Virus record (IMG/VR): IMGVR_UViG_3300029319_009270
Span: 26,545-90,544 of that record
Source: a virus
DNA length: 64,000 nt
Reading direction: 5' to 3' (one strand)
Shown: positions 14,037-38,545 of the stretch, one piece after another
How the letters are laid out: each line of letters starts with the position of its first letter
Numbering within the stretch: the first letter of the stretch is position 1
Position numbers and translations under genes: made by a program
Notes under the pieces: generated by a model
Told to the model about the DNA's origin: nothing
Databases searched by the model: none
Seen by the model: only the letters and a program-made list of their open reading frames with translations

Positions 14037-14729
14037 TTAACCTCTAATAACAGCCAAAATTCTATCTGCTCTTTCAATTCTTTTTTCTATTACATTCCAA
14101 TTTAGTTCTTTCATCATAGCTGTCGTGTACAACTTTACATCTTTAAGGTAATCCCTATAATAAGCATGTTGCCAAACATCCATTACGATCACCGGATAAA
14201 ATCCAGCAGGAACTTGCTGAGAATGCAAGTCTATAACACAGTTCATGTATTTTTGTGTGTATGTATTTAAATATGTAACTGCCCAACCACATCTAGCAGC
14301 AGAACAGCATGCGATAAAATCTCTTTGCCAGTCATCAAAAGAACCAAAGTCCCTCTGCAACCTCATAAAAGAAAGAGAATCCATCGTTATTTCAGAATTA
14401 ACATCGCTTATGTTTGCAAAATATAATTCATGGAGGTAAGCAGCATTCATATTGTAAGTCTCATCAATTTTTAATTGACGATAATCAGAATGATTTGAAT
14501 TAGATTTTGATCGATCAACAGTGTCTAACTTTGCACTAATCTCATTAAAATCTTTAAGATACTGCTGATACAGTTTTTTGTGATTTTCTTTATTCTTGTT
14601 ACTAAGAAATTCTGTGTTTAACTTAAATTGTTTTTCTTGAGCAATTAGCGCTTCATCTATTCTATCTTCTTTCAATCCTAAGTTGTCTTTAATTAAAGAT
14701 TTCACTTCATTATTTAACAAGTAATCCAT
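14037..14729 (-). CDS. Fe/Mn superoxide dismutase family protein
   Basis: Metal ligands in NHKKLY, LHELYF and DVWQHAYY; FGSFDDW and GWA motifs. Confidence 0.88.
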   Translation of the reverse strand: MDYLLNNEVKSLIKDNLGLKEDRIDEALIAQEKQFKLNTEFLSNKNKENHKKLYQQYLKDFNEISAKLDTVDRSKSNSNHSDYRQLKIDETYNMNAAYLHELYFANISDVNSEITMDSLSFMRLQRDFGSFDDWQRDFIACCSAARCGWAVTYLNTYTQKYMNCVIDLHSQQVPAGFYPVIVMDVWQHAYYRDYLKDVKLYTTAMMKELNWNVIEKRIERADRILAVIRG

Positions 14730-15436: not shown

Positions 15437-16288
15437 TTATTCATCCTCTTCTTGAATGTCAGAAAATATTTCATCAACATGTTTATCCTTGCTAATTCTA
15501 AAACCCGCTGCTTTTCTATGACCCCCGCCTCCAAATTCTTTGGCAATCTCAGAAACATCAATTGTATCATGAAACGATCTTAAACTGACTAGGGTAGTTT
15601 TTGCATCGTGGTCGTAATACCAAATTGTTGCAAAATCACAATCAGGAGAAAGTTTAGCGCCTATTTCTGACATCCAATGTGAAGCATTAACAACATATGT
15701 TTTCATACCTTTGTACTCTTTTAAAGTTGCTTTTTCACATATCTTTTTAATAACTGTCTTTGAATACGCTAATATATAGCTACCTCTTTTAACAGCGTCA
15801 TCAAAGACAGAATCATCTTCAAATTTTTCAAACTCTTCAAATTCAAACGGAACCATGTCAAAAGCTGCACTAAATTCTTTTGAATAAGGTAATTCCCATT
15901 TCCACAGATCTCTGTCCATAATGTACTGAATAAACTTAGGTGGTTCCTTTCCTGGATGAAACCACTCCCAAGATAACATCGCACCACTTTTGGTCATGTC
16001 AAAATGTGTATTACTAATATCGTGTAATTCAACCATAGCAGATTTATGATGATCAATAACTAATAAATTATTAGAGTCTTCTATCATCTTTTTTGTTGTT
16101 GCGTTATTAAAAGAAAAATCTAATATTACAACATTCTTATTTTTAACATCTGGGGGTTGGGTACCGTGCTTGCACGCGTGATACTCTGCTCTATTACCAA
16201 GTAGCTTCCACGCAGAATATGCAGCACCAAAACCGTCTGTACAATGTGCATGATATATTACACAATCTACGCTGTTCGGATCTAACAT
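15437..16288 (-). CDS. DHH/DHHA1 phosphoesterase
   Basis: DGFGAA, ILDF, IDHH, SLRS and GGGGH.AAG. Confidence 0.92.
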   Translation of the reverse strand: MLDPNSVDCVIYHAHCTDGFGAAYSAWKLLGNRAEYHACKHGTQPPDVKNKNVVILDFSFNNATTKKMIEDSNNLLVIDHHKSAMVELHDISNTHFDMTKSGAMLSWEWFHPGKEPPKFIQYIMDRDLWKWELPYSKEFSAAFDMVPFEFEEFEKFEDDSVFDDAVKRGSYILAYSKTVIKKICEKATLKEYKGMKTYVVNASHWMSEIGAKLSPDCDFATIWYYDHDAKTTLVSLRSFHDTIDVSEIAKEFGGGGHRKAAGFRISKDKHVDEIFSDIQEEDE

Positions 16289-16302: not shown

Positions 16303-16878
16303 CTAAATGCGCATATAAGTATGGTGTTCCTGACATCTTGGCTCGTAAAGTTCTGACCCACCTACTTGAATTTTTTTATTCGCATTACTTAAACTATGTT
16401 GTTGTTTTTTGTGTGTATATCTTGCATCTTTCTGGCATATCGGACAAACAGCTTTACATTTTACAATTCTTGTACAAAAAGGCATTATTTTTTGTACTTC
16501 TTCAAAAGGCTCTCCTAAAAAATTTAAATCAATTGAAGCAATTACTACATCATAACCCATTTTAAAAAGATCGATACACTCTTGTGCACTACCTTCTATT
16601 AAAAATAACTCATCTATAATTACACAGTCATAAAAGTCTGCGCCTAGATCATGAGATTTCATAATCTCTATAATTTCTTTTCCTGTATTAACAAGATGAG
16701 CATCAAGCTTATTGAAATTGTGTGTAACTATTTCGCCCTTACCAGAATATCTGTCATCCATTTTGGATTTAAAAGCAATCAAATTCTGTTTCCGGTATTC
16801 CCTTTTATCAGCTTCCATTAATAACTTTGTTGTCTTCGAACTGAACATTGGCCCAGTATACAATATCATTTCTGCCAT
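16303..16878 (-). CDS. tdk: Thymidine kinase (type II)
   Basis: GPMFSSKTT, DDRY, IDE, zinc lasso C..C and GGSELYEPRC; TAATG coupling at 16878. Confidence 0.93.
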   Translation of the reverse strand: MAEMILYTGPMFSSKTTKLLMEADKREYRKQNLIAFKSKMDDRYSGKGEIVTHNFNKLDAHLVNTGKEIIEIMKSHDLGADFYDCVIIDELFLIEGSAQECIDLFKMGYDVVIASIDLNFLGEPFEEVQKIMPFCTRIVKCKAVCPICQKDARYTHKKQQHSLSNANKKIQVGGSELYEPRCQEHHTYMRI

Positions 16879-17858
16879 TACTTCAAACCCCACCACTTAA
16901 CTGTTTTTTCTAATCCTTCCCAAAATCTTACTTTAGGCGTGTAACCAAAAGCTTCTTTTGCTCGAGTTATGTCTGCACATGTATGCATAACATCACCTGG
17001 TCGCCATGGTGCAGTATGAACTTTTGATCCGAAGTTATCTATAAAATAAGTTAATATCTCTCCATTTGTTACAGAATCGCTACACGCAATATTAAAACAT
17101 TGACCACGCCATCTTTCTTTTACCTTTGAGGAAAGTATATTTGCATCAACAACATTATCAACATAACACATGTCTCTACTTTGAGTTCCATCACCATCCG
17201 ATCGACAGCTAAGACCGTTTTTAGTAGCATGACACCAAGCAGAAACTGCAGTCGAATAAGGGCTGTCTCCATACTGACCCGGCCCAAACACGTTAAAATA
17301 TCGAAGGCAAACAATATCAGAATCATCATAAAGTGAACCATAAACTTTGGCGATATCTTCACACGCAGATTTTTGCCAAGCATAAGGTGACTTAGGCTTT
17401 TTGATCGTTGATTCAGGCGTAGGCATAATATCTGCGCCACCATAAACTGACGATGATGAAGAAAAAATAATTCTTGTTTTTCCAATTCTTGCTGCATCAA
17501 ATAATTTAACTGTATTCATTAAGTTGACCTCAGTCGTCTCTGCTGGATTCTCAACTGAAAAACTTACTCGTGGTACCGCAGCAAGATGAAATATGCAGTC
17601 ATAATTTCCTAATGCAACTTTTTCTAATATTCCGCTGAAAGCGAAATCACAATGAAAAAACCTAATAAAATCTCTGCCTGTTTCATCTATGCTGTGCATA
17701 ATCTGTGCCATTGATTTTCTAATTTTATATTCTTCTAACGAATCAAAATTACCGCTAGATAAATCATCAACAATGTCAATCGTGTAATTTTCTTCATGTA
17801 GCTTCTTAACTAAATTAGAACCTATGAAACCGAAACCACCCGTTACTAAAACTTTCAA
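16878..17858 (-). CDS. NAD-dependent NDP-sugar epimerase/dehydratase (extended SDR, WbpP/GalE-like)
   Basis: TGGFGFIG, HLAA, SSSSVY, YAWQK, RYFNVFGP and GDGTQSRD. Confidence 0.93.
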   Translation of the reverse strand: MKVLVTGGFGFIGSNLVKKLHEENYTIDIVDDLSSGNFDSLEEYKIRKSMAQIMHSIDETGRDFIRFFHCDFAFSGILEKVALGNYDCIFHLAAVPRVSFSVENPAETTEVNLMNTVKLFDAARIGKTRIIFSSSSSVYGGADIMPTPESTIKKPKSPYAWQKSACEDIAKVYGSLYDDSDIVCLRYFNVFGPGQYGDSPYSTAVSAWCHATKNGLSCRSDGDGTQSRDMCYVDNVVDANILSSKVKERWRGQCFNIACSDSVTNGEILTYFIDNFGSKVHTAPWRPGDVMHTCADITRAKEAFGYTPKVRFWEGLEKTVKWWGLK

Positions 17859-17875: not shown

Positions 17876-18790
17876 CTAAATTATAATATGCGCAGAATTA
17901 AAGTTTATTCTTATTCTACATTTCAAATTATTTAATCTTAATTGATTGTATACTTTACTACAAAGATAATACAAGAATTGAATATCGTATTTTAAAGTAT
18001 CTTTTGTATTAGATGATCTAAAAACAAAATTACAGTCAAATATTCTATTTCTTACTGTGAACTGCCCAAAAGAAATACAAGTATCAGAGCTGTACACAAA
18101 TCGTCTAGAAGCAGTATTTTCTTTTCTATTATGTTCATTATTCCCATTCAACTCATTTTCTATTTTGTTCTGAACTGATTTTAATATGCTTTGATAATAA
18201 TCTTTTTCGGGCTCGTATTCCAAAACTTTTAAATTAATATCTTTAAAATCGCAGTCGCTATAATAAGTTAGATTGATATGAGAAGCTTCTAAACTATCAT
18301 TTGCTGCCGCGAACATATTTACATAACCAGCAACATCTTGAATGCTGATGGCTTCTATCGTCATCAACTCTTTAATAACCGGTTCAACGTAAGAAAGCGT
18401 ATTATCATCTCTAATAACCATCACGTTTGGATACAGTCTTAATTCCTCAGCTGCTTCTTCAAACAATCTATAAACTTTTTTAAGGGTTGTTATGGTTTGT
18501 ATATCATCCCCTCTTTTGTTATAACGTCGTTCAATCTCGTCCCACGATGGTAAAAGTATAATAATACGATTGTTCAAGTTTTTAATTTCTGCATTAAGTC
18601 TTTCAACTTCAATAAAAGTATCGCGATCGTAAAGCTTTGCATAAACTAACATTGACAAAGCAGATCGATCTTGGATATTCCAACGATACTTAGAAATTTT
18701 ATGCAGCTGATTATAAAAAGAAGTCTTGCCAGACAAATCAGGGCCTTCTAAAATTAACTGACTTGTTGGGAAACAATTTGTTTTATTCAT
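17876..18790 (-). CDS. dNMP kinase fused to a minimal thymidylate-synthase (ThyA)/dCMP-hydroxymethylase-fold domain
   Basis: N-term LEGPDLSGKT P-loop and DRS; C-term SRR...DTCISFGQF...FRSSN...LKYDI...NSAHI; start at 18790 after GGAGG. Confidence 0.8.
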   Translation of the reverse strand: MNKTNCFPTSQLILEGPDLSGKTSFYNQLHKISKYRWNIQDRSALSMLVYAKLYDRDTFIEVERLNAEIKNLNNRIIILLPSWDEIERRYNKRGDDIQTITTLKKVYRLFEEAAEELRLYPNVMVIRDDNTLSYVEPVIKELMTIEAISIQDVAGYVNMFAAANDSLEASHINLTYYSDCDFKDINLKVLEYEPEKDYYQSILKSVQNKIENELNGNNEHNRKENTASRRFVYSSDTCISFGQFTVRNRIFDCNFVFRSSNTKDTLKYDIQFLYYLCSKVYNQLRLNNLKCRIRINFNSAHIII

Positions 18791-18807
18791 GTTACCTCCT
18801 AACACGT

Positions 18808-18864: not shown

Positions 18865-19530
18865 CTAGCTCACGTATTTCAATATTAATTCAGGCACTGA
18901 ATAATTGAACAACTCAAAATCTTTTTGATACAGATTGTAAAAATATTTTGTAACATCTGGCGAATATTCCCAGTCAGGTTGTATATCTTTATTAATTCTG
19001 GATTTATTCATGTGAGGTAGTTTTTGATTGCTGATGACGTCTTTGTCATTTAAAAACTTTATAACATTTTCAATTTCTTCAAATTTAAAAACTTTTGTTT
19101 TATCATCAACAAAATAATGTTGAGGCACCCAGTGATTATCGTCGAAACCCATTCCTAATTTAGGAACAAGATCTGTAAAAACTGCGTGCATATAATGAAT
19201 AATCCCATGAGGCGTTATTGAGTTTCTAGTAATCGTGGTTGTCTCTAGCTTTTCGTAACCTTTAATTACATAAAATATTTCTGACAACATTCTTTCTATG
19301 GGATTTCTAACGATCGTAAATGTAAATTCAATGTCTAGATCTGAATTCATTTTATTATACACGTCTTTCGTATGATGAGGATGCGCCTTAAAATAGTTTG
19401 ACTCTTTGGTAAAAAACCTTTTCTCATCTTTTTTCCAACCTGCACTTTGTATTAGTTTTCTTATAGAAGTACCTCCAGTTTTAGGTATGTGCACAAACTG
19501 TATTGTTCTGTTGTCTTTATAGAATATCAT
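18865..19530 (-). CDS. Sulfotransferase (Sulfotransfer_2-like)
   Basis: FVHIPKTGGTSI (5'-PSB loop), VRNPIERMLS (3'-PB) and HWVPQ; ATGA overlap with dnaE. Confidence 0.88.
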   Translation of the reverse strand: MIFYKDNRTIQFVHIPKTGGTSIRKLIQSAGWKKDEKRFFTKESNYFKAHPHHTKDVYNKMNSDLDIEFTFTIVRNPIERMLSEIFYVIKGYEKLETTTITRNSITPHGIIHYMHAVFTDLVPKLGMGFDDNHWVPQHYFVDDKTKVFKFEEIENVIKFLNDKDVISNQKLPHMNKSRINKDIQPDWEYSPDVTKYFYNLYQKDFELFNYSVPELILKYVS

Positions 19531-23129: not shown

Positions 23130-24125
23130 TTAAATACTAGTCGGTGAGTTTGAAAATTTTATTTTTGTAATTGTTGGACACGACTCAGTTATTCTATCAG
23201 TAATATAAGTCGTCATTTCTGTCAAAGAATCAAATACTTTATGTTCATTATGATGCAATTTAAATAATTTAGCTGATTCGATGACATCTGTTTTTGATAA
23301 AACAATATGCGTTGTCCCAGTAAAATTAATTGCTTTTATCAGCTTGTTGAGATTGAGCCAGTTAACCTTTCTTCTTCTACCCGTTGTAACACCAAACTCA
23401 TGACCAAGATCTGCAATTTTCAGTAATTCAGGATCATTAAGTAAACTTTCAGGAAAGTCCGGATCAACTCCTGACCTAGTATCATAAACTTTCGCAGCTC
23501 CCCATATATTCCTTATCATCTGAATTGGAAATCCTAAGGAGCATGCTCCGTGTGGTAAGGTTGTACTAGAAGTAACATAAGGATAATTACCAAAATCTAC
23601 ATCCAGCCATATTCCTTGCGCACCTTCACAAAGAACTTTTCCGGAAAGATTCTCATCCCACATCATCCAGTAGGGTATAACGTCTTTAGCAAGAACCCCC
23701 TTGCGAGCCATTTTATCAGCGTAGCAAGGGGCTATTCCCTTTGATGTGGTTCCAAGTTTTTTTGCTAACTTTTCCGCATCTTCATCAATGTGAAGTCTGC
23801 TTACAATATGCGCTCTGGGTGAAACCTTAACTTTTGATATATCAAAACCGTTTTTCTCCAAATATCTAATTTCCGCCATAAGTGAATTCTCATGAACAAC
23901 GCAACCTGGCCCTATGACTGATGTTACACCATGAAAAACACCACTTGGTACTAAATGGGTTTTGTATTTTTTACCATCGACAAAAACAGTGTGTCCTGCA
24001 TTGTTACCACCAGCCCAACGACAAACAAAATCATATTCACCACTACCGGCTAATTCTGATGTAATTTTTCCTTTTGCCTCATCGCCCCAAGCTAATCCGC
24101 AAACAATATCTGCGTATTCAATCAT
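23130..24125 (-). CDS. purA: Adenylosuccinate synthetase, short form (PurA, not PurZ)
   Basis: WGDEAKG (catalytic Asp kept), GGNNAGHT, EGAQG, YPYVTSS, EFGVTTGRRR and SKTD GTP-specificity motif. Confidence 0.92.
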   Translation of the reverse strand: MIEYADIVCGLAWGDEAKGKITSELAGSGEYDFVCRWAGGNNAGHTVFVDGKKYKTHLVPSGVFHGVTSVIGPGCVVHENSLMAEIRYLEKNGFDISKVKVSPRAHIVSRLHIDEDAEKLAKKLGTTSKGIAPCYADKMARKGVLAKDVIPYWMMWDENLSGKVLCEGAQGIWLDVDFGNYPYVTSSTTLPHGACSLGFPIQMIRNIWGAAKVYDTRSGVDPDFPESLLNDPELLKIADLGHEFGVTTGRRRKVNWLNLNKLIKAINFTGTTHIVLSKTDVIESAKLFKLHHNEHKVFDSLTEMTTYITDRITESCPTITKIKFSNSPTSI

Positions 24126-28832: not shown

Positions 28833-29918
28833 CTAAACAAATACAGAGTTAAACTGTTGTGTGCATCTAACGAATGTAGCACATTTGCTCAACTGTTTTA
28901 AGGTGGGCGCTCCTACGTAAGTACAAGTAGATCTAACCCCACCTAAAATATCTTTGATTGTATTTTTGACTTTTCCTTTATAGGGTATTTCTACTGTCCG
29001 ACCTTCAGAAGATCGGTATTCTGCCACGCCGCCTGAATGTTTTTGCATTGCAGTATCAGAGCTCATACCGTAAAACTGTATGTAGTGTTTTTCTTCATAA
29101 ACTGGACCTAGCTTATCACCATAAATAGAAAGCTCTATCTCACCTGTTTTAAAACACTTAGTTATAATTTCACCACCCCCTTCGTCATGACCGGCCAACA
29201 TTCCGCCTAACATTACAAAGTCAGCACCGGCTGCAAATGCTTTGGCCACGTCTCCCGGGCAAGTGCATCCACCATCTGCGATGATATGACCGCCTAAACC
29301 GTGCGCTGCATCAGCACATTCAATAACAGCTGAAAGCTGTGGGTATCCAACGCCAGTTTGAATTCTTGTAGTGCATACAGAACCCGGGCCAATACCAACC
29401 TTAACAACATCTGCTCCTGCGAGAATAAGCTCTTGTGTCATGTCTGCAGTGACAACATTACCAGCAATGATGTTGCAATGAGGAAAATCACTTCTGACTA
29501 GTTTAACAAAATCAGTAAAGTGTTCTGAGTATCCATTCGCTATATCAATACAAATCCAACTTAGATTACACGTTGAAATTATTTCTTTTGCTTTCTTGTA
29601 CTCTTCTACGTTTGTGCCCACACTAATAGCAAGATGATCTGTGTCTATTTGTCCGAACTGACCATACCAGTCCTCAGGTGTATTTTGCTTTGTTATGCAG
29701 GTAAACATCTCACATAACGCTAGCTCGTGTGCTATATTAAACGTGCCTACCCCGTCCATGTTCGCAGCCATAATTGGGATCCCAGTCCAGAATTTGCCGC
29801 TGTTTCTAAACGTATACTTTCGACGCAAGTCGACTTCTTTCCTAGATCGGAGGATACTGCGTTTTGGACGAATTAGTACATCTTTATAATCTAATTTTAT
29901 TTCTTGTTCAATTCTCAC
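28833..29918 (-). CDS. guaC: GMP reductase (type 1)
   Basis: [37 protein letters not shown] catalytic Cys, ADGG, FYGMSS and YRSSEG. Confidence 0.95.
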
Positions 29919-31888: not shown

Positions 31889-32866
31889 CTAATAATACTG
31901 TGTCAAATCTATATTTTTACCTTTTGCTTCTTCAAGATATCTTAAAGGATTGTAATTGTCTGTTTTTGTTATGCTTTCAAAAGACATTCTAATACCTGTT
32001 TGTAGATCAATCTTTGGTGACCACCCAGATACATTTCTAAACTTCCAAGATGATAGCATATGATTACCAAGGTAGTCTGTTTTAGAGTGCCATCTGATTA
32101 CATTCTCAAGGTCTAGATCAGTAACTTGTTGAATCAACTTTACAATCTCACCTGTCATCAAAGGAGTTTCAGCTGCAACATTCCAATCCTGGTACCAAAG
32201 ATTTTGATTTATTGCTGTTAAAACTGCATCGCAATAATCGTTGACATGCATGTAGTCTTTAATTTTTGAAGGATCCAGGAACATATCAATCTGTGTCTTT
32301 CCGTTAATAGCACCATAGATTGATTTTGCAATAAGAGAATTCATATCTCCAATTCCTCCATAAGCGAATAGAGGTCGAACAATCATCCATTTTTCAACTT
32401 GACTTTTAATAATGTCCTCTGCACAGAGTTTTTGACAGCCATATAAAGTGTGTGGGCCTCTATCTGATCTTTCTTCAATTTGCTTGCTTTGGTAGTTCTT
32501 TGTATCATATATCACTGTCGTACCCATGTAGCAGACAGGTATGTCTAGCTTTCTTGCAGCCCGGCAAATTGTATACGTACCTTCAACGTTGGTTAAGGTA
32601 GATTCTTTAGCATTAAGTGCTACAACGTCTGTACCGACAACTGCAGCATTATGTATTATAACATCAATTTTTTCACTTTTGAAAAAGTTTACCCAATGAT
32701 CAATTGAATTTCCATGAACACAAGGTTCTTTTTTCTCGGACCATTTTGTAAAATAATTATCATATTTTGACACGCCTTCATTGACAACTTCTATATCAAA
32801 TAACTTAGATCTGGCTATTAGATTTCGGCCGATGAAGCCTTTTTCTCCGGTGATGAATAATTTCAT
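31889..32866 (-). CDS. NAD-dependent NDP-sugar epimerase/dehydratase (extended SDR, divergent)
   Basis: ITGEKGFIG, HNAA, GTTVIY, YGCQK and KDYMHVND. Confidence 0.88.
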   Translation of the reverse strand: MKLFITGEKGFIGRNLIARSKLFDIEVVNEGVSKYDNYFTKWSEKKEPCVHGNSIDHWVNFFKSEKIDVIIHNAAVVGTDVVALNAKESTLTNVEGTYTICRAARKLDIPVCYMGTTVIYDTKNYQSKQIEERSDRGPHTLYGCQKLCAEDIIKSQVEKWMIVRPLFAYGGIGDMNSLIAKSIYGAINGKTQIDMFLDPSKIKDYMHVNDYCDAVLTAINQNLWYQDWNVAAETPLMTGEIVKLIQQVTDLDLENVIRWHSKTDYLGNHMLSSWKFRNVSGWSPKIDLQTGIRMSFESITKTDNYNPLRYLEEAKGKNIDLTQYY

Positions 32867-32886
32867 TTTTTACTCCTTTTTGATAT

Positions 32887-32915
32887 ATTATACAAAGCAT
32901 TATTGAATATTACAT
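32887..32915 (-). promoter_or_regulatory. Putative class-1 promoter ATGTAA-N17-TATAAT
   Basis: Motif and spacing. Confidence 0.65.
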
Positions 32916-33356
32916 ATGTGTATGATAACTTTTGTGACGCTCATACATAATATCAGTTTTTACATGATAGTGATCAATACCTAATGCATGCCCTGTTTCA
33001 TGAACAACAACTTCATAATCAGTCACACCTTCGTGTGAAAGCTTTATGACTGCATTATCTAAATACCGATAAGTCCAATTGAGTTCAGTGTGTCCGTAAG
33101 TACGTACTGTATCAATAGTATCATCAGCAGGTGCAAATTTAATAACATACTTTTCTGGTTTGCCATCACAATGTGTTCTTGTAGAAATTTCACCAAATTC
33201 ATGACCTCTTGATTTCCAATATTCGATAGCATCTTGAACGTACTCAATTTTAATATTAGAATTTTCACAATAAACAACATCGGGTGCTACACGCCAGGTT
33301 GCAAAGTATTCATAGTCTGCAGCAAATGTTGAAGCAATCAAAGCTAGTAGAAACAT
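32910..33356 (-). CDS. Secreted matrixin-like (M10 metzincin) metalloprotease
   Basis: Signal peptide; HETGHALGIDH zinc motif; DIMY Met-turn. Confidence 0.88.
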   Translation of the reverse strand: MFLLALIASTFAADYEYFATWRVAPDVVYCENSNIKIEYVQDAIEYWKSRGHEFGEISTRTHCDGKPEKYVIKFAPADDTIDTVRTYGHTELNWTYRYLDNAVIKLSHEGVTDYEVVVHETGHALGIDHYHVKTDIMYERHKSYHTHM

Positions 33357-33404
33357 AAAAACTCCTTTTATTTTTATTATAAAAGGAGTTTTTTAAATTT
33401 GCAC
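33357..33404 (-). promoter_or_regulatory. Promoter GTGCAA-N17-TATAAT embedded in a 14-bp inverted repeat covering the RBS
   Basis: Perfectly complementary arms at 33357-33370 and 33380-33393; -10 at 33376-33381, -35 at 33399-33404. Confidence 0.65.
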
Positions 33405-33419
33405 GTGTTTTAAATAAAT

Positions 33420-34385
33420 TTAATATCTTCCATGATATCTTCGTCGATACAAACTACCTCGACTAAGACCTTCATTAATATCTGTATCGGGTCCTACCAT
33501 ACCACTGGGTGTCTCCGGTTGTCCAGAGGGTGGTACATCTCGAGATGTAACAGACTCAGGGTTTGACTTGAATTCAATATCATCATCTTTTGTACTAGCA
33601 ACTTTTGCAGAACCTGACGCGGATGGAATCAATTTACTAGCATAAGTTATAGCTCCAGCGTCTAACAACATCTGAAGAACCCCGTCGTGAAGCATAGAAG
33701 CAGCCGTAGTTGTACCGCATTCTGAACTGAAGACGCGCAGATATCCTCTCTGTTGACTGACAAAACTACCTTCGCGCTGGGACGCTCGAACTCTTTCGCC
33801 TATCGAAACCAATGCATTTTTATCACCATCTAAAGTGGCAATTGCTGATGCTGCTAAAACCTCTTTATATTCACCTGCAGCTTCAGGATAAACATCACAA
33901 TAAAGTTCTGAATCCTCGATAAATTCTAAGATTGCATTTATTGGCGGTTCAGGTTCAGGTTCTTTAACTTGTGGTTTGAAAGTTTTTCCAACGGACTTAC
34001 TTACGGGTCCTGAAATTATTCTATAACGATCACCCACTTTTGCATAAGTGTACGGGTCTCCTCTTCCACTGATACCATAATCAGATCCCGCCTTTCCGAA
34101 TTCAGGTTTAACGCCTATCTCAGGTGCCCAATATAAATCCCAGTCTAACCAAACGAAATAATCGCCTTTTGGAACAGGGATATTCATTCTTTTAAGAATT
34201 TCAGCAGCTTCGGAAGCGGGAACTTTTACTGCTTTTGGATTGTCTGCTGCTTTCGCTTTGTCTAAGATGTCTCCTTCTCGAGGATCTAAGTTTTTACCCT
34301 TAGGATCAGCGTCAGGTATAGCATGTTCTTCTTCATTTAATAGTGATTCTATCAATAAATTCAAATTTCTTTTAGTGATTCTCAT
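33420..34385 (-). CDS. Hypothetical protein, N-terminal-motif family, with basic C-terminal tag
   Basis: MRITKRNLNLLIESLLNEE ... INEGLSRGSLYRRRYHGRY. Confidence 0.8.
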   Translation of the reverse strand: MRITKRNLNLLIESLLNEEEHAIPDADPKGKNLDPREGDILDKAKAADNPKAVKVPASEAAEILKRMNIPVPKGDYFVWLDWDLYWAPEIGVKPEFGKAGSDYGISGRGDPYTYAKVGDRYRIISGPVSKSVGKTFKPQVKEPEPEPPINAILEFIEDSELYCDVYPEAAGEYKEVLAASAIATLDGDKNALVSIGERVRASQREGSFVSQQRGYLRVFSSECGTTTAASMLHDGVLQMLLDAGAITYASKLIPSASGSAKVASTKDDDIEFKSNPESVTSRDVPPSGQPETPSGMVGPDTDINEGLSRGSLYRRRYHGRY

Positions 34386-34436
34386 ATTAGTTAAACTCCC
34401 TGATATAAATCTATGTATAAGTATTAGTTAAACAAT

Positions 34437-34469
34437 AAAAAATCCCAACAATTGTTGGGATCCTTTTTT
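34437..34469. terminator. Rho-independent terminator (bidirectional geometry)
   Basis: ATCCCAACA/TGTTGGGAT hairpin flanked by A- and T-tracts. Confidence 0.75.
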
Positions 34470-34485
34470 AATCGTGAAAAAAGAT

Positions 34486-34935
34486 TTATTCTATTTCACC
34501 TTCATATCTTAATTCAAGCAAACGTTCAGATGCAGTACAATCTTGCAAGTAAGCATCTAATTGTTCCAACGAAGTGCATACTGCAATTCCCGATGCTGCT
34601 AACATGAGATTAAATTGTGCACCGGGTGGTAAACCATCGCAAAAATAAACAATTGGCTTTTCTAAACAATTCATATAACCTGCTTCAAAAATCGACCCCA
34701 TATCTTTGTTTCTTGTATTGCATAGCATCCAGTCACATTCATGAAGATGCCTAATATTTCCTGAAAATATTTGATCTTGTATAGACTCATTAGCATCATT
34801 ATCACAAAGATTTTCATCCTTCGGTGAAAAATAAGAAATGCCGTGTTTTTCAAAAACTGATTTAATATTTTCTACTTCTTCCAACCACTCAGGTGAAAAC
34901 CACCCGCTTGCTAAATAAACTTTTCCTAAACTCAT
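34486..34935 (-). CDS. Nucleoside 2-deoxyribosyltransferase / nucleotide N-glycosidase (NDT, MilB, DNPH1 superfamily)
   Basis: VYLASGWFS, FSPKD, DMGSIFEAG (catalytic Glu) and FNLML. Confidence 0.88.
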   Translation of the reverse strand: MSLGKVYLASGWFSPEWLEEVENIKSVFEKHGISYFSPKDENLCDNDANESIQDQIFSGNIRHLHECDWMLCNTRNKDMGSIFEAGYMNCLEKPIVYFCDGLPPGAQFNLMLAASGIAVCTSLEQLDAYLQDCTASERLLELRYEGEIE

Positions 34936-35924
34936 TATTCTCTCCCCATAAATTGATTGTATTGATTTGTTAATTGATTAATCTCTTCTAATGTTTCTTC
35001 CCAAAGCTGTGTAAAAATTGTTGGTGTACCCGGGACATGATTTTTACCATTAATATCCTCACGACGAGACTGATAAATTGTATCATTGGGATGATATTCA
35101 AACTTATCGTTCTTTGGTTCTGGCCAATATAGGTTTGTACCTCGTGATGTTTCGCCACCTTTACCATCAGGTACGCGAAATGTTTTAATATAGTGCATAT
35201 CTGGTTTATTAAAATTAATACGCGCGGTTGCTTCAGGCAGAACTTTGATTACTTCTCTTGCCATGTACGCGGCAAGTAAATTATCAGCTGCCGGTTGAAT
35301 TTGCATGTCTTGACGTTGAGCGATAAAACCTAACAGATCTTTTAAGTTAAGACGCATTAGATAAAATGAAGTCATGCACTTTGGTAAAATCATTCTTGCA
35401 TCCATCATTGATACAATCTTGGAATCTGTCATGTCAGCATATAATTCCTTAGATTCGCGAACTAACTTTTTCCAGCGCCTATCAAACTCGGGTGTGTTTT
35501 GAACAGCTTCAGGAATTACTGCGGGATCATCCCTTAAGTCACGATCACCAGTACACTGTGCGGCAAAACTACCAGCACGATGTCGTATGATGTGTGTAAC
35601 CTCTTGAAATGATAAGCCACTTAACTTAAATGTAAACCCTAAACATTCCATAGGTGTTGGAAGTGCACGAAAACAAAGAACATCCTCGAGATTTGCAGAC
35701 AGTTCTTTTAAACTAGCAGTAGCTGGATTTGTCTCATCGTGATGATCAGCCCATGTTGCTTTTACATATTGCCAAGCAACATTAAGCGCTTGAGATCTAG
35801 TTGGATGATCAACTAGTTCAACTTTCAAATGTGCAAGATTGTTATAAAATGCTGTGTTGGGTTCTTGACCAAACTTAAGTTCCATTGGCAGATCAACAGG
35901 TTTCAAATCATTATTCTGTGGCAT
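34935..35924 (-). CDS. Divergent ThyX-fold (flavin-dependent thymidylate synthase-like) protein
   Basis: FTF...RHRAGSFAAQCTGDR, DARMILP and NLKDLLGFIAQR. Confidence 0.82.
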   Translation of the reverse strand: MPQNNDLKPVDLPMELKFGQEPNTAFYNNLAHLKVELVDHPTRSQALNVAWQYVKATWADHHDETNPATASLKELSANLEDVLCFRALPTPMECLGFTFKLSGLSFQEVTHIIRHRAGSFAAQCTGDRDLRDDPAVIPEAVQNTPEFDRRWKKLVRESKELYADMTDSKIVSMMDARMILPKCMTSFYLMRLNLKDLLGFIAQRQDMQIQPAADNLLAAYMAREVIKVLPEATARINFNKPDMHYIKTFRVPDGKGGETSRGTNLYWPEPKNDKFEYHPNDTIYQSRREDINGKNHVPGTPTIFTQLWEETLEEINQLTNQYNQFMGRE

Positions 35925-35956
35925 GCAAAGCCTCCTTGTTTAAAGTTTACTTATTT

Positions 35957-35985
35957 ATTATAAATAAAAATACTAATCTTTACAA
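35957..35985 (-). promoter_or_regulatory. Putative class-1 promoter TTGTAA-N17-TATAAT
   Basis: Motif and spacing upstream of the ThyX-like gene. Confidence 0.65.
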
Positions 35986-35988
35986 CTT

Positions 35989-36909
35989 TTATTTTATTAT
36001 TAACTTATTAGGATTCGTATAGACAAATGTATTATCACGACCATCAACTTCTAAATTATAATTTTTTCTAGGATAATAACAAACTATTCCGTGCTTTGCA
36101 TAATCCACAATATGTTTGGGAGCATCGTCAATTGCAGCAACTATTTTATCTTTATCATAGTACTTTGACCTAGCACACCATCGAAATTTTTCTGTGCTAA
36201 AGTCAACTGCATCAAACGGAATACTGTTATTTTTTAGCCAATAAAACGTATCATAAAAACATTTTAAATTTTCTTTAGGTCTAGCTGTCAATAGCTGGAT
36301 CCAGTAGCCTTGCTTTTTTAAATTATTTAGCATCTCAATCGATCCATCAACGACATCTAAATTCCTAAACCCACCCTTATTAACAAATTCGTAAAATACA
36401 GCTTCAGGATTTAAATCTAATTTATTCAATGCAGTTATAAAATAGTATTCTTTACTATAGACATCAATTTCTAAATTGTAATTTACACCTAGCCAATCTG
36501 CAAAACCTTGTCTAAATTCAGTCAAAACATCATCCATATCAACAATAACGACAGGTTGAGACCCATCCCAACTATCTTGTGTCTTGTGAAGAAAATTTAA
36601 ATATGAATCTTTATCATAAAAAGCTTCAATAAAATTTTCACTAGATATTTGATTAATATTAAGGATAGCTAAGATATATCGAAATATATCCACAGATTCA
36701 TAGAGCATTTTTGTTTTGTCTACAGAATCTGTTTGTGCATGATGATCTTTAAAATCAACAGATTGCATTAGCTCACTAACTTCTGAATGTAAGCAAAGTG
36801 ATAAAGTTTTTGTAATATCTACAATTTCTCTATCACTTAAGTTTTTTTCGCTTAGATTATATAAGCTAGAATTGAATTTTGCTTGTAAATTGAACAGGTT
36901 TTTCAGCAT
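35989..36909 (-). CDS. All-alpha NTP pyrophosphatase (MazG/dCTPase-dUTPase-like) fused to a HAD 5'(3')-deoxyribonucleotidase
   Basis: N-term EVSELM...F.DH...ESVDIFRY; C-term VDMDDVL, LTAR, T..WL and IDDAP; start at 36909 after GAGG. Confidence 0.82.
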   Translation of the reverse strand: MLKNLFNLQAKFNSSLYNLSEKNLSDREIVDITKTLSLCLHSEVSELMQSVDFKDHHAQTDSVDKTKMLYESVDIFRYILAILNINQISSENFIEAFYDKDSYLNFLHKTQDSWDGSQPVVIVDMDDVLTEFRQGFADWLGVNYNLEIDVYSKEYYFITALNKLDLNPEAVFYEFVNKGGFRNLDVVDGSIEMLNNLKKQGYWIQLLTARPKENLKCFYDTFYWLKNNSIPFDAVDFSTEKFRWCARSKYYDKDKIVAAIDDAPKHIVDYAKHGIVCYYPRKNYNLEVDGRDNTFVYTNPNKLIIK

Positions 36910-37135
36910 TTTTGACCTCACTAATTTTGCCTCCTGCAATTGCAAAGGCGTCTGTTAAACAATCAGGCTCTATTTTTTCAAAAAATATTGAGCTATGATC
37001 TGATAAGCGAATAATTCCTGATAAAAAATCTTTATTTATATTTGTAATAATACACTGCAATTCATCCTTATTACAAAAACTAAAAGAATTAATTATTTTA
37101 TCATTACTAGCAGTCAAAATTAGTTTGTGCATCAA
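36866..37135 (-). CDS. Hypothetical protein
   Basis: Coupled ORF inside the cluster. Confidence 0.5.
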   Translation of the reverse strand: MMHKLILTASNDKIINSFSFCNKDELQCIITNINKDFLSGIIRLSDHSSIFFEKIEPDCLTDAFAIAGGKISEVKNAEKPVQFTSKIQF

Positions 37136-37629
37136 TAACCATTTTTAAGTCTATCATTAATTATTATGTCTTTATTCAAATATGCCTTAAAAAATTCATC
37201 TGAGTCTATGTTTAGATGTATCATTAACGAAAAGAAATAGTTAAAAGCATCAACCATCTCTTCTAAAAATTCTTCCTTATTAAATGTTCCACCAACATCA
37301 GTTTGACGATGAGACTTCCAATTTTTCAAGTGTTGGAGAGCTTCAAACATCTCCTCGACGCCGTGCAATGCTAAGTCTCTTAGATATTTTTGACCATCTT
37401 TTGATGCAGGATTAATTTCTTTTGGTTGCGCTTTCGGAACTGTTTTACTTAAATTAGTCATAAAAGCTTTTCTAAGTAAGAAAATCTGTTCTAAACGATC
37501 ACAATTAAATTCATTATTTGTCTTCTCTTCTTCCTTTAACAGACTCAAGCATTGATTCAATTTCTCTTTCAATTCTTTCTTTGCTTTCTTTCGTAAGTTT
37601 AAGGTTTCCATCGCCATTCTCCAGTTCAA
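37132..37629 (-). CDS. Dimeric all-alpha dUTPase/dCTPase-like NTP pyrophosphatase (start uncertain)
   Basis: EEMFEALQHLKNWKSHR...EEMVDAFNYF...YLNK..N.DR...GY. Confidence 0.82.
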   Translation of the reverse strand: MNWRMAMETLNLRKKAKKELKEKLNQCLSLLKEEEKTNNEFNCDRLEQIFLLRKAFMTNLSKTVPKAQPKEINPASKDGQKYLRDLALHGVEEMFEALQHLKNWKSHRQTDVGGTFNKEEFLEEMVDAFNYFFSLMIHLNIDSDEFFKAYLNKDIIINDRLKNGY

Positions 37630-37732: not shown

Positions 37733-38545
37733 CTATTTTTGAATACTTGGTACCCAATGTGTTGTCCTCTTGTCTTTAGTCTTTTCTCTAACAACAAGAT
37801 TACCATTTGGATCTGTTTTTTGATTATACACAGCAAAACGCCTACTGTACAAACCTTTTTCACCATTTGACTGCCTATATGTTGCTATTGTAGCTCCACC
37901 CATTTGATACGAAAGTCTAGTAATCCACCGACACGCTTCAGAAAGAGACTCAAATTCTTTGTCAGATACATCCTTACTTAACCTGTGGGGAGATATCTGG
38001 CACGCATAAAGTATTTCTGCTTTTAAATAGTTACCAACCCCAGATATCACAGATTGATTCATTAGGTTTTCAGCTACAGTTTTATTAGGCCTCTTTAAAA
38101 ACCTTTCTCTAATTGTATTCTGATCAACTTCTGAATTTAAAACATCAGGTCCGAGCGACTTAAGTTTCTTCTCAAGTTCATGGAAGCATCGCACATATTT
38201 AAGCGTTCCAAAGTTTCTCACGTCATTAAAGTGAACGCTCTGACCTTTATGGTTAGTTAGCGTTACGCGCGTGTGCTTGTTCTTTTTGCGCTGCCACATC
38301 CCGCTCATACCTAATGTTGACCACAAAGACGAACCGGTATTAAATTTAAAATAGATAAACTTACCTTTGCAGCAAACTTCTTCTACAATCAACGGGAATA
38401 ACTCATTATCTAATAAGTCATAACCTTTAAACGGACCGTGTTTGACATAACGCCCTGAATTAATCTGGACATCTAATATTCTGGTTCCTTGCAGAATGCT
38501 ATTTAAATAGTCAACATTTTTTCTTACTTCTGGACCTTCAGGCAT
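37733..38545 (-). CDS. Fpg/Nei family DNA glycosylase/AP lyase with a zincless finger
   Basis: MPEGPEV, KGKF, LGMSG, DVRNFG, LGPD and H2TH SGVGNYLKAE; no Cys4 finger. Confidence 0.93.
   Translation of the reverse strand: MPEGPEVRKNVDYLNSILQGTRILDVQINSGRYVKHGPFKGYDLLDNELFPLIVEEVCCKGKFIYFKFNTGSSLWSTLGMSGMWQRKKNKHTRVTLTNHKGQSVHFNDVRNFGTLKYVRCFHELEKKLKSLGPDVLNSEVDQNTIRERFLKRPNKTVAENLMNQSVISGVGNYLKAEILYACQISPHRLSKDVSDKEFESLSEACRWITRLSYQMGGATIATYRQSNGEKGLYSRRFAVYNQKTDPNGNLVVREKTKDKRTTHWVPSIQK

What the first reader, a model, noticed from the sequence alone, without database searches (positions are those of the whole stretch)
17876..18790. dNMP kinase fused to a stripped-down ThyA domain with cytosine-selecting Asp and no folate site
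Seen, aligned by eye to E. coli ThyA: phosphate-binding SRR (R126/R127), catalytic Cys in DTCISFGQF (C146; codon 18077-18079), RS (R166/S167) and NSAH (H207) are kept. Asn177 is replaced by Asp (LKYDI vs LPFNI; codon 17984-17986), folate-contacting D169 is Asn (RSSN), the loop before the Cys is deleted, and the protein ends right after the His with no C-terminal lid. Established: Asn versus Asp at this position discriminates dUMP from dCMP (T4 gp42 D179). Inference: a folate-independent dCMP-activating enzyme whose product is phosphorylated by the fused kinase; alternatively a nucleotide-sensing domain regulating the kinase.
Basis: partly seen in the sequence, partly recalled or inferred. Interest (0 to 1): 0.88.

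Follow-up and report, generated by a model that had tools for sequence, protein, structure and literature searches.

The report
Kinase fused to minimal dCMP-modifying enzyme
An uncultured marine phage encodes one protein that joins a nucleotide kinase to a very small thymidylate-synthase-like enzyme; it most likely makes a modified cytosine nucleotide (probably 5-hydroxy-dCMP) and phosphorylates it for use in phage DNA.

Summary
Window 17876-18790 (-) is a real 304-aa gene with an AGGAGG ribosome-binding site. Residues 1-147 are a YorR/thymidylate-kinase-like P-loop kinase. Residues 148-304 are a much-reduced thymidylate-synthase (TS) fold (AF2 pLDDT 93).

In 166 relatives the Cys, the two phosphate-binding Arg and the cytosine-selecting Asp are essentially invariant.

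These are the flavin/O2-dependent dCMP 5-hydroxylases (HY126 AfhB, RB69 gp48). They are TS homologues that keep Cys146 and carry N177D and D169N.
- They are the best structural match (Foldseek E 8.5e-7) and the best profile match (hhalign 94.8%, E 5e-8).
- In three characterised 5-hydroxycytosine phages a YorR-like kinase lies next to the hydroxylase. Here the two are fused, and in other phages they are separate neighbours.

The cofactor-binding half that both the hydroxylases and T4 dCMP hydroxymethylase conserve is missing here. The "diagnostic" Asn switches with Asp/Glu at least 15 times within the family. The C5 chemistry is therefore inferred, not shown.

Verdict: a new, minimal, kinase-fused variant of a known enzyme kind, in a large uncharacterised phage family.

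The parts
17876..18790 (-). Complete CDS (304 aa plus TAG stop) of the kinase::mini-TS fusion protein
   Evidence: More than 300 full-length homologues of about 300 aa. The start is fixed by the SD sequence.
18795..18800 (-). Shine-Dalgarno AGGAGG, 4 nt upstream of the ATG at 18790. TATAAT-like boxes lie further upstream in the 74-nt gap after the sulfotransferase gene.
   Evidence: read directly from the sequence
18350..18790 (-). N-terminal P-loop nucleotide kinase domain (residues 1-147), YorR/thymidylate-kinase-like. Invariant motifs: EGPDxxGK(T/S) at 15-23, D41-R42-S43, R93-G94-D95.
   Evidence: VIA Z 13.4 to 2axp (B. subtilis SPbeta YorR) and Z 10-11 to dTMP kinases. PDB profile hit to YorR, E 3.8e-6. 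Pfam Thymidylate_kin or AAA_28 in 41-46 of 55 members, below cut-off. Invariant motifs.
17879..18349 (-). C-terminal minimal thymidylate-synthase-fold domain (residues 148-304, 157 aa; ThyA is 264 aa and RB69 gp48 is 238 aa)
18101..18109 (-). S228-R229-R230, equivalent to ThyA S125-R126-R127 (phosphate binding; supplied across the dimer in TS enzymes)
   Evidence: (R229 and R230 166/166)
18077..18079 (-). Cys238 codon, equivalent to the catalytic Cys146 of ThyA
   Evidence: 166/166 conserved. Aligned to C146, to C148 of T4 dCH and to the Cys of AfhB.
18008..18019 (-). R258-S259-S260-N261, equivalent to ThyA R166-S167-C168-D169. The Asn is the published 5hodCMP-synthase signature (D169N).
   Evidence: N 123, D 30, E 12; at least 15 switches on the family tree
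17984..17986 (-). Asp269 codon, equivalent to ThyA Asn177. Asp here selects cytosine over uracil.
   Evidence: 164/166, the rest gaps. Alignment. Role taken (paper) and T4 dCH D179.
17888..17890 (-). His301 codon (NSAH), equivalent to ThyA His207. The protein ends 3 residues later.
16878..17858 (-). Extended-SDR NDP-sugar epimerase/dehydratase-like gene. It starts 17 nt after the fusion gene's stop and has its own GGAG. It is a conserved downstream neighbour; whether it belongs to the same pathway is not shown.
   Evidence: Pfam Epimerase 2.6e-46. NCBIfam best matches are TviC and GalE, below cut-off. Homologue present within the +/-10 kb flank in 39 of 51 related loci, usually directly downstream. 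Spacing.

Best explanation
The gene encodes a bifunctional enzyme that supplies a C5-modified deoxycytidine nucleotide for phage DNA synthesis.

Step 1, C-terminal domain. This is a minimal thymidylate-synthase fold and probably a homodimer like all TS enzymes. It binds dCMP through R229'/R230', R258/S259 and the cytosine-selecting D269. Cys238 adds to C6, which makes C5 nucleophilic, and C5 is then functionalised without folate. The most likely reaction is 5-hydroxylation by a flavin hydroperoxide (reduced flavin plus O2), as in the recently described dCMP hydroxylases AfhB (phage HY126) and RB69 gp48. The product would be 5-hydroxy-dCMP.

Step 2, N-terminal domain. This is a YorR/thymidylate-kinase-like kinase. 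It phosphorylates the unusual dNMP to the diphosphate, which host kinases may handle poorly. A host NDP kinase and the phage DnaE polymerase encoded just upstream can then put it into DNA.

Basis of each step:
- Shown here: the two folds, the residue equivalences and their conservation, homology to the dCMP-specific branch of the TS superfamily, and the recurrent kinase/TS linkage (fused, or as separate neighbours).
- Inferred: the substrate (dCMP), the nature of the C5 substituent, flavin use, the order of the two reactions, and incorporation into DNA.
For: (1) Fold. The AF2 model has pLDDT 93.4 and pTM 0.88. Residues 1-147 match YorR (Z 13.4) and dTMP kinases. Residues 148-304 match the TS fold.

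(2) Closest relatives.
- Foldseek ranks 9iqu 'phage HY126 dCMP hydroxylase AfhB with dCMP' (E 8.5e-7) and 9iqc 'monooxygenase ... with dCMP and FAD' (3.1e-6) above all ThyA entries (3e-5 or worse).
- VIA gives 9iqc Z 11.1.
- hhalign of the C-domain profile against the RB69 gp48/AfhB family gives 94.8%, E 5.4e-8. Against the T4-type dCMP hydroxymethylase family it gives 80.5%, E 1.3e-5.
- 9iqu/9iqc belong to the gp48 family.

(3) Signature. Lee et al., NAR 2026 (PMC13326640) show that 5hodCMP synthases keep C146 and carry N177D, and they propose D169N as diagnostic. The window protein has C238, D269 and N261.

(4) Catalytic residues are invariant in 166 members.

(5) Rosetta-stone evidence.
- In the characterised 5-hydroxycytosine clusters a YorR-like 'nucleotide kinase' lies next to the hydroxylase: DLP3_078/080, RB69p045/048, RL38J1_214/216.
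- In phages with a stand-alone mini-TS (L065, L068) a separate kinase gene sits beside it and is homologous to the N-domain here (blastp E 1e-10 to 6e-9).

(6) Flavin link. In L065-L068 a roughly 300-aa protein overlaps or abuts the start of the stand-alone mini-TS gene. The ESM Atlas model of it aligns at TM 0.77-0.80 with FAD amine-oxidase / protoporphyrinogen-oxidase proteins. Its best PDB profile hit is UDP-galactopyranose mutase, which is weak at E 0.12.

(7) Context. DnaE - fusion gene - SDR - TK - DHH - dCMP deaminase is the prevailing gene order in the 51 related loci. dUTPase_2/MazG-like NTP pyrophosphatases that could make dCMP from dCTP, an NT5C nucleotidase and an NDT-like gene lie nearby. 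Canonical ThyX covers dTMP synthesis, so this protein is not needed as a thymidylate synthase.
Against: (1) The middle segment that is nearly invariant in the gp48/AfhB family (about residues 64-120, FWxFMISGGTDA...NTFYGPRI) is missing here. So is the corresponding segment of ThyA and T4 dCH. Whatever binds the cofactor in those enzymes is largely absent.

(2) The 'diagnostic' Asn is not stable. It is N in 123, D in 30 and E in 12 of 166 members, with at least 15 switches on the family tree among syntenic orthologues. All stand-alone mini-TS proteins inspected have Asp.

(3) In a profile-versus-PDB-sequence search, T4 dCMP hydroxymethylase scores best (E 0.008). AfhB scores E 0.16.

(4) The FAD-type partner protein is not detected in five fused-type genomes, one of them 100% complete.

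(5) Pfam GT1 and GT2 glycosyltransferase families, the only ones searched, match in only 2 of 5 large related records, far from the gene. A glycosylated end product is therefore not supported.

(6) The phage encodes Fpg/Nei-like and EndoIII-like glycosylases. From established knowledge, their E. coli homologues excise 5-hydroxycytosine.

(7) There is no biochemical or DNA-composition data.
Confidence: 0.55

Rival explanations
1. The architecture and logic are the same (dCMP activated by Cys238, product phosphorylated by the fused kinase), but the C5 chemistry is not hydroxylation. It could be hydroxymethylation or methylation with a one-carbon donder delivered in an unusual way, for example by a partner flavoprotein such as the divergent ThyX paralogue. 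It could also be an electrophile not yet known for this superfamily. The mini-TS would then be a bare 'pyrimidine activator' that relies on a second protein for the electrophile.
For: - The cofactor half of both known dCMP-specific TS families is missing.
- T4 dCH is the best PDB sequence hit, and hhalign to the dCH family covers 140 columns, nearly the whole domain.
- Asp/Glu at the D169 position, as in folate-dependent enzymes, occurs in 26% of members and in all stand-alone forms inspected.
- A divergent ThyX (a flavoprotein family) is present in every one of 5 large related genomes, alongside a canonical one.
- A FAD-type protein is coupled to the stand-alone mini-TS.
Against: - No folate-binding elements are recognisable.
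- The best structural and profile-profile matches are to the hydroxylase family.
- The window protein itself carries the D169N signature.
- No physical or genetic link between mini-TS and the ThyX-like protein was tested.
Confidence: 0.27
2. The TS-like domain is not an enzyme. It is a dCMP/dNMP-binding sensor or sequestering module that regulates or targets the fused kinase.
For: The domain lacks every recognisable cofactor site. Fusion to a kinase could serve allosteric control.
Against: - The nucleophilic Cys is 166/166 conserved, together with H301, R247 and the whole nucleotide-binding set. Binding alone would not need the Cys.
- The domain also exists as a stand-alone protein of 160-220 aa in other phages, with the kinase encoded separately.
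Confidence: 0.08
3. An ordinary thymidylate synthase / thymidylate kinase fusion making dTDP from dUMP.
For: Weak Pfam and NCBIfam similarity of the N-domain to dTMP kinase. PHROG names 'thymidylate kinase' and 'thymidylate synthase'.
Against: - Asp replaces Asn177 in every member.
- The segments corresponding to the folate site and the C-terminal lid are absent.
- The genome already has a canonical ThyX at 161 bits and a thymidine kinase.
- No ThyA appears among the PDB sequence hits of the domain profile even at E <= 10.
Confidence: 0.03

Closest known systems
Flavin-dependent dCMP 5-hydroxylase / 5hodCMP synthase (phage HY126 AfhB, PDB 9iqu/9iqc; RB69 gp48; DLP3 gp80; RL38J1 gp216)
   Same: - TS fold.
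- Catalytic Cys, the SRR and RS phosphate binders, Asp at the N177 position, Asn at the D169 position, and Arg at Cys+9.
- The C-terminal lid is lost.
- Best Foldseek and hhalign match.
- Associated with a YorR-like nucleotide kinase.
   Different: - 157 aa instead of 230-240.
- The roughly 55-residue conserved middle segment of that family is absent.
- Not recognised by Pfam PF00303, whereas all gp48 relatives are.
- The Asn is variable within this family.
- Covalently fused to the kinase.
- No arabinose/UDP-sugar/glycosyltransferase cluster of the known type was found next to it, by Pfam/PHROG scans of part of the neighbouring ORFs and GT1/GT2 genome searches.
- Flavin use is untested.
T4-type deoxycytidylate 5-hydroxymethyltransferase (gp42; PDB 1b49)
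   Same: - dCMP-specific branch of the TS superfamily: Cys, Asp179 equivalent, Arg at Cys+9.
- Best PDB sequence hit of the domain profile (E 0.008).
- hhalign 80.5% over 140 columns.
- Works together with a dNMP kinase.
   Different: - gp42 is 246 aa.
- It keeps Asp at the D169 position (RSND) and uses CH2-THF.
- Its N-terminal and middle conserved segments (W63, Y64, IPGxxPxIW...NSNYG) have no counterpart here.
Thymidylate synthase ThyA
   Same: Same core fold, with C146, R126/R127, R166/S167 and H207 equivalents.
   Different: Relative to ThyA the protein has Asn177 replaced by Asp and D169 replaced by Asn, an 11-residue deletion before the Cys, no residues 66-93 (small domain), and no last 57 residues. 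ThyA acts on dUMP.
B. subtilis SPbeta YorR (PDB 2axp/3kb2) and the 'nucleotide kinase' genes of 5hoC clusters (DLP3_078, RB69p045, RL38J1_214)
   Same: Best structural match of the N-domain (Z 13.4, rmsd 2.6 over 137 residues). Shared EGPD..K(S/T)T P-loop and DR..S and RGDE motifs. Phage-encoded and found in nucleotide-metabolism modules.
   Different: Those kinases are stand-alone proteins of 155-180 aa whose substrates have not been determined. Direct sequence similarity to RB69 gp45 is limited to the P-loop.

Membership tests
Thymidylate synthase / dCMP hydroxymethylase superfamily (TS fold) | TS alpha/beta fold | tested here: met
   Foldseek probability 1.00 to more than 275 TS-family chains. 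VIA Z 11.1, 10.6, 10.0 and 8.7 to AfhB, ThyA, MilA and T4 dCH over residues 148-304.
Thymidylate synthase / dCMP hydroxymethylase superfamily (TS fold) | Catalytic Cys (ThyA C146) and phosphate-binding R126/R127 and R166/S167 | tested here: met
   C238, R229/R230 and R258/S259 align to them and are conserved in 165-166 of 166 members.
Thymidylate synthase / dCMP hydroxymethylase superfamily (TS fold) | Match to Pfam PF00303 above the gathering score | tested here: not met
   No PF00303 hit for this protein at E <= 1. Four of 55 relatives hit, with best E 0.035. Genome search with PF00303 found nothing.
Canonical ThyA (dUMP to dTMP, CH2-THF) | Asn177 for uracil recognition | tested here: not met
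   Asp269 here, and Asp in 164/166 members.
Canonical ThyA (dUMP to dTMP, CH2-THF) | Folate-binding small domain (about residues 66-93, including W80/W83) and C-terminal lid | tested here: not met
   Both segments have no counterpart in alignment A4. The protein ends 3 residues after H207-equivalent H301.
Flavin-dependent 5hodCMP synthase (AfhB / RB69 gp48) | Cys146 retained, N177D and D169N signature (Lee et al. 2026) | tested here: met
   C238, D269 and N261 in the window protein. Caveat: the D169 position is N 123 / D 30 / E 12 across the family, with at least 15 switches.
Flavin-dependent 5hodCMP synthase (AfhB / RB69 gp48) | Profile-level homology over the whole enzyme | tested here: inconclusive
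   hhalign gives 94.8%, E 5.4e-8, but only over 80 columns (SRR to SAH). The N-terminal half does not align.
Flavin-dependent 5hodCMP synthase (AfhB / RB69 gp48) | Family-invariant middle segment (F75...G82-G83-T84...N111-F112-N113-T114-F115-Y116-G117-P118-R119 in gp48 numbering) | tested here: not met
   The invariant columns are listed. The segment is deleted in the window protein in alignment A4.
Flavin-dependent 5hodCMP synthase (AfhB / RB69 gp48) | Binds flavin and hydroxylates dCMP with O2 | not testable with these tools
   This needs enzymology. The only indirect hint is a FAD-type protein coupled to stand-alone mini-TS genes in other phages.
Flavin-dependent 5hodCMP synthase (AfhB / RB69 gp48) | Companion YorR-like nucleotide kinase in the cluster | tested here: met
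   Here it is fused. It is a neighbour in DLP3, RB69 and RL38J1.
T4-type dCMP hydroxymethylase (gp42) | Asp179 (cytosine selection) with Asp retained at the D169 position, plus a CH2-THF site | tested here: not met
   The Asp179 equivalent is present. The D169 position is Asn in the window protein, and the conserved N-terminal and middle segments of the family are absent.
Thymidylate-kinase-like / YorR-like dNMP kinase | P-loop kinase fold with (E)GxDxxGK(S/T) and DRx motifs and a lid Arg | tested here: met
   Z 13.4 to YorR and 10-11 to dTMP kinases. E15-G16-P17-D18...G21-K22, D41-R42 and R93 are invariant.
Thymidylate-kinase-like / YorR-like dNMP kinase | Pfam/NCBIfam dTMP kinase model above cut-off; substrate dTMP | tested here: not met
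   PF02223 scores 15.8 bits against a cut-off of 27. TIGR00041 scores 19.4 against 83. The substrate cannot be tested here.

The most novel reading that the evidence does not exclude
The mini-TS domain may represent a cofactor-site-less 'pyrimidine activator' branch of the TS superfamily, of at least 361 clusters at 50% identity, in fused and stand-alone forms. In this reading it only forms the Cys-C6 adduct with dCMP and receives its electrophile from a separate redox partner. That partner would be a FAD amine-oxidase-like protein where mini-TS stands alone, and possibly the adjacent SDR or the divergent ThyX paralogue where it is fused to the kinase. The product would be a cytosine modification not yet described, in the DNA of a widespread clade of 200-280 kb marine phages. 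In a few members, including this window, it might be elaborated further by the sulfotransferase inserted into the same module.
Probability: 0.2. Interest if true: 0.85.

Novelty: new variant of a known kind. Interest (0 to 1): 0.62.

Why it matters
Flavin-dependent dCMP hydroxylases were only described in 2026, and only as roughly 235-aa stand-alone enzymes of cultured Straboviridae, Pootjesviridae and a few metaviromic sequences.

This gene shows that a much smaller relative of about 157 aa is a syntenic gene beside DnaE in a clade of uncultured marine phages. Fifty of 51 related IMG/VR contigs have both genes within 10 kb, and their genomes reach 284 kb. Here the relative is fused to the kinase that sits next to the hydroxylase in the known systems, and the function of that kinase has never been tested.

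The fusion gives a direct, testable prediction for the kinase's role: phosphorylating the modified dNMP. It also suggests that non-canonical cytosine may be common in ocean viromes. That would affect sequencing bias, restriction and CRISPR evasion, and host-range inference.

Because the domain lacks the cofactor half of its relatives, it is also a natural minimal scaffold for asking what a TS fold needs to switch from folate to flavin chemistry.

Tried and rejected
- tblastn of the protein against 50,697 phage records found no match. The DnaE is at most 31% identical to any cultured phage, so there is no cultured relative to lean on.
- BLASTP of the protein against RB69 gp48 gave nothing significant. 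A single-sequence hhalign was weak (3.3%). Only family profiles gave a clear answer.
The expected TS-type homodimer and the placement of the kinase relative to the active site could therefore not be examined.
- The structure prediction of the FAD-like partner protein from a 4-sequence alignment failed (pLDDT 39.6) and was not used for a fold search. I relied instead on the ESM Atlas model and weak PDB profile hits, which are leads only.
Only one subgroup, giving 4 loci, could be fetched.
- He et al., Nat Chem Biol 2026 (the AfhB structure paper) is not held, so the flavin-contacting residues of AfhB could not be mapped.
- Searches for Pfam-detectable glycosyltransferases and Pfam/PHROG scans of unknown conserved neighbours gave no consistent downstream modification enzyme.
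- The sulfotransferase next to the gene is not part of the conserved module. It is present in 3 of 51 loci and at another position there.
- The PurA-like gene was checked as a possible PurZ and rejected as unproven: the PurZ model scores 113 bits against a cut-off of 300.
Full report
**1. What is at the coordinates**

Window 17876-18790 (minus strand) is one open reading frame of 304 codons.
- The mechanical ORF list starts it at a GTG (18805). The ATG at 18790 is preceded by AGGAGG at 18800-18795, and more than 300 homologues of about 300 aa start at the equivalent residue.
- The next gene, an extended-SDR sugar-nucleotide epimerase-like protein, starts 17 nt after the stop with its own GGAG.
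- The window is part of a 90.5-kb IMG/VR virus record judged 37% complete. It is AT-rich with nearly all genes on one strand.
- No cultured relative exists in the phage collection.

**2. Checking the observation**

hhalign of a profile of the C-terminal domain against E. coli ThyA and a joint alignment with ThyA, a T4-type dCMP hydroxymethylase and RB69 gp48 give:
- S228-R229-R230 = S125-R126-R127
- C238 = C146
- R258-S259 = R166-S167
- N261 = D169
- D269 = N177
- H301 = H207

There is an 11-residue deletion before the Cys, and no sequence beyond three residues after the His.

In 166 family members:
- R229, R230 and C238 are 166/166.
- R258 and S259 are 165/166.
- D269 is 164/166, with the other two being gaps.
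- H301 is 163/166.

Pfam does not detect the domain. PHROG 160 (thymidylate synthase) matches weakly.

**3. Fold**

An AlphaFold2 model built on 55 homologues is very confident (pLDDT 93.4, pTM 0.88).
- Residues 10-157 superpose on B. subtilis SPbeta YorR (Z 13.4) and on dTMP kinases and other P-loop NMP/nucleoside kinases (Z about 10-11).
- Residues 148-304 superpose on TS-fold proteins.
- Foldseek's two best hits are 9iqu, 'phage HY126 dCMP hydroxylase AfhB with substrate dCMP', and 9iqc, 'monooxygenase dependent on riboflavin with dCMP and FAD'. Both rank above some 270 ThyA, dCH and MilA chains.

**4. The precedent**

Lee et al. (NAR 2026, PMC13326640) show the following:
- RB69 gp48, DLP3 gp80, RL38J1 gp216 and nine further TS homologues convert dCMP to 5-hydroxy-dCMP.
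- The oxygen comes from O2, and the enzymes carry a flavin.
- They keep C146, have N177D, and have D169N as a proposed diagnostic residue.

The AfhB crystal structures belong to this family.

Profile-profile comparison of the C-domain gives:
- 94.8% probability, E 5.4e-8, to the gp48/AfhB family over the SRR-to-SAH half.
- 80.5%, E 1.3e-5, to the T4-type hydroxymethylase family.
- 44%, E 2.3e-4, to a single ThyA sequence.

The domain belongs to the dCMP-specific branch of the superfamily, with a modest preference for the hydroxylases.

**5. The kinase link**

Table 1 of the same paper lists a 'nucleotide kinase' whose best structural match is YorR or thymidylate kinase. It sits one or two genes from the hydroxylase in all three characterised phage families (DLP3_078/080, RB69p045/048, RL38J1_214/216). 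Its function was not tested there. Here the same kind of kinase is fused to the TS-like domain.

A profile search of 1.84 billion representative proteins with the C-domain found 361 clusters. These include stand-alone forms of 160-220 aa.

In contigs carrying such stand-alone forms, a separate 155-157-aa kinase lies beside or near the mini-TS gene. It is homologous to the N-domain here (blastp E 1e-10 to 6e-9). The same contigs also carry NT5C/HAD nucleotidase, dUTPase_2-type NTP pyrophosphatase, a divergent ThyX, dCMP deaminase and DnaE.

The pair is fused in one lineage and adjacent in others. That is classic evidence that the two proteins act in one pathway.

The P-loop (EGPDxxGKT) and the DRSxxS motif resemble thymidylate kinases. 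This favours an NMP-kinase role over a nucleoside-kinase role; that step is inference.

**6. Genomic context**

Among the 51 related viral contigs, the gene order DnaE - fusion gene - SDR epimerase - thymidine kinase - DHH/DHHA1 phosphoesterase - dCMP deaminase prevails. Within the +/-10 kb flanks, homologues are found in:
- DnaE: 50 loci
- fusion gene: 50
- SDR epimerase: 39
- thymidine kinase: 33
- DHH/DHHA1 phosphoesterase: 32
- dCMP deaminase: 36

Some 13-20 kb upstream of the fusion gene on the coding strand (window 31.9-39.5 kb) lie a second SDR, an NDT-like protein, a divergent ThyX, a dUTPase_2::NT5C fusion and another dUTPase_2-like protein.

All five large related records carry one canonical and one divergent ThyX. 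dTMP synthesis is therefore covered, and this protein is not a disguised thymidylate synthase.

The all-alpha NTP pyrophosphatases could play the part of T4 gp56 (dCTP to dCMP). That is inference.

The sulfotransferase just upstream is not part of the conserved module. It occurs in 3 of 51 loci, at a different position.

**7. What does not fit a simple 'it is AfhB' filing**

- The domain is only 157 aa. About 55 residues that are almost invariant in the gp48/AfhB family are deleted, as are the corresponding conserved segments of dCH and ThyA. This is where the cofactor would be expected to bind.
- The Asn at the D169 position is N in 123, D in 30 and E in 12 members. It switches at least 15 times on the family tree among syntenic orthologues. 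All stand-alone forms inspected have Asp.
- T4 dCH is the best PDB hit by sequence.
- Pfam GT1 and GT2 glycosyltransferase families match in only 2 of 5 large related records, far from the gene.
- The phage encodes Fpg/Nei- and EndoIII-like glycosylases. From established knowledge, their cellular homologues remove 5-hydroxycytosine.

There is one positive hint for flavin chemistry in the wider family. Stand-alone mini-TS genes are overlapped by a roughly 300-aa gene with a GxGxxG...GRxAxW pattern.
- The ESM Atlas model of that protein aligns at TM 0.77-0.80 with FAD amine-oxidase / protoporphyrinogen-oxidase proteins.
- Its best PDB profile hit is UDP-galactopyranose mutase, weak at E 0.12.
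- The protein is not detected in five fused-type genomes, which carry the SDR instead.
- The SDR is absent from three stand-alone-type records.
- This complementary pattern rests on few genomes and is only a lead.

**8. Conclusion**

The most likely product is 5-hydroxy-dCMP/dCDP, by analogy with the nearest characterised family. The loss of the cofactor half and the unstable 'diagnostic' residue leave real room for different C5 chemistry or for a two-component mechanism.

I file it as a new, minimal, kinase-fused variant of a known kind, not as a member of the AfhB family in the strict sense. One defining feature, the family's conserved middle segment, was tested and not met.

**9. Earlier notes of this scan**

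Notes e1-6107922 and e1-6107915 pointed me to the second nucleotide-metabolism cluster at 31.9-39.5 kb. I confirmed its domain content by Pfam but not its function. The scan had also noted this same stretch in another window (e1-6107914).

Noticed in passing
window 18865-19530 (-): Sulfotransferase (Pfam Sulfotransfer_2 9e-14; PHROG 'galactose-3-O-sulfotransferase') lies between DnaE and the fusion gene. Homologues occur in only 3 of 51 related loci, and there they sit between DHH and dCMP deaminase. In L024 a Methyltransf_24 gene lies beside it. It is an accessory gene that lands repeatedly in this nucleotide module, and its target is unknown.
   Followed up: partly
window 28833-29918 (-) and 23130-24125 (-): A bona fide GMP reductase (NCBIfam 531 bits against a cut-off of 397) and a short (331 aa) adenylosuccinate-synthase-like protein. 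Together they would convert GMP to AMP in this AT-rich phage. The PurZ (2-aminoadenine) model scores only 113 bits against a cut-off of 300, so a Z-genome is not supported.
   Followed up: partly
window 31889-37629 (-): A second nucleotide-metabolism cluster: SDR (31889-32866), NDT-like nucleoside deoxyribosyltransferase (34486-34935), divergent ThyX with a C-terminal extension (34935-35924), dUTPase_2::NT5C fusion (35989-36945) and a dUTPase_2-like protein (37132-37629). All five large related genomes have exactly one canonical and one divergent ThyX.
   Followed up: partly
window 37733-38545 (-) and 39091-39525 (-): A complete Fpg/Nei-type glycosylase (three Pfam domains) and an HhH-GPD (EndoIII-like) glycosylase. 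Both are families that excise oxidised pyrimidines in cells, which is odd company for a possible 5-hydroxycytosine pathway.
   Followed up: no
L065:4752-5750, L066:5920-6873, L068:5965-6861, L049:4070-5101: In phages where the mini-TS is a separate gene, a roughly 300-aa protein with a GxGxxG...GRxAxW pattern overlaps or abuts its start. It is FAD amine-oxidase/UGM-like by the ESM Atlas model (TM 0.77-0.80). It is absent from five fused-type genomes, which carry an SDR epimerase next to the gene instead.
   Followed up: partly
L068:5324-5968: A contig with a stand-alone mini-TS also encodes, two genes upstream, a second 214-aa TS homologue that Pfam does recognise (PF00303, 1.4e-7). It has RSLD and an 'NDV' motif, so one phage carries two different small TS-like enzymes.
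   Followed up: no
L002, L008, L028, L045, L048, L050 (DnaE region): The DnaE gene is interrupted by a 300-330-aa ORF in several related phages, possibly an intein or a homing-endonuclease insertion. It is not interrupted in the window.
   Followed up: no
window 14037-14729 (-): A 230-aa protein with only the C-terminal domain of Fe/Mn superoxide dismutase (Pfam Sod_Fe_C 4e-17). It is conserved in 32 of 51 related loci, downstream of dCMP deaminase.
   Followed up: no
window 15437-16288 (-): A DHH/DHHA1 phosphoesterase of 283 aa, weakly NrnA-like (oligoribonuclease/pAp phosphatase). It is conserved in 32 loci between thymidine kinase and dCMP deaminase. It is possibly a nucleotide-salvage nuclease.
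   Followed up: no
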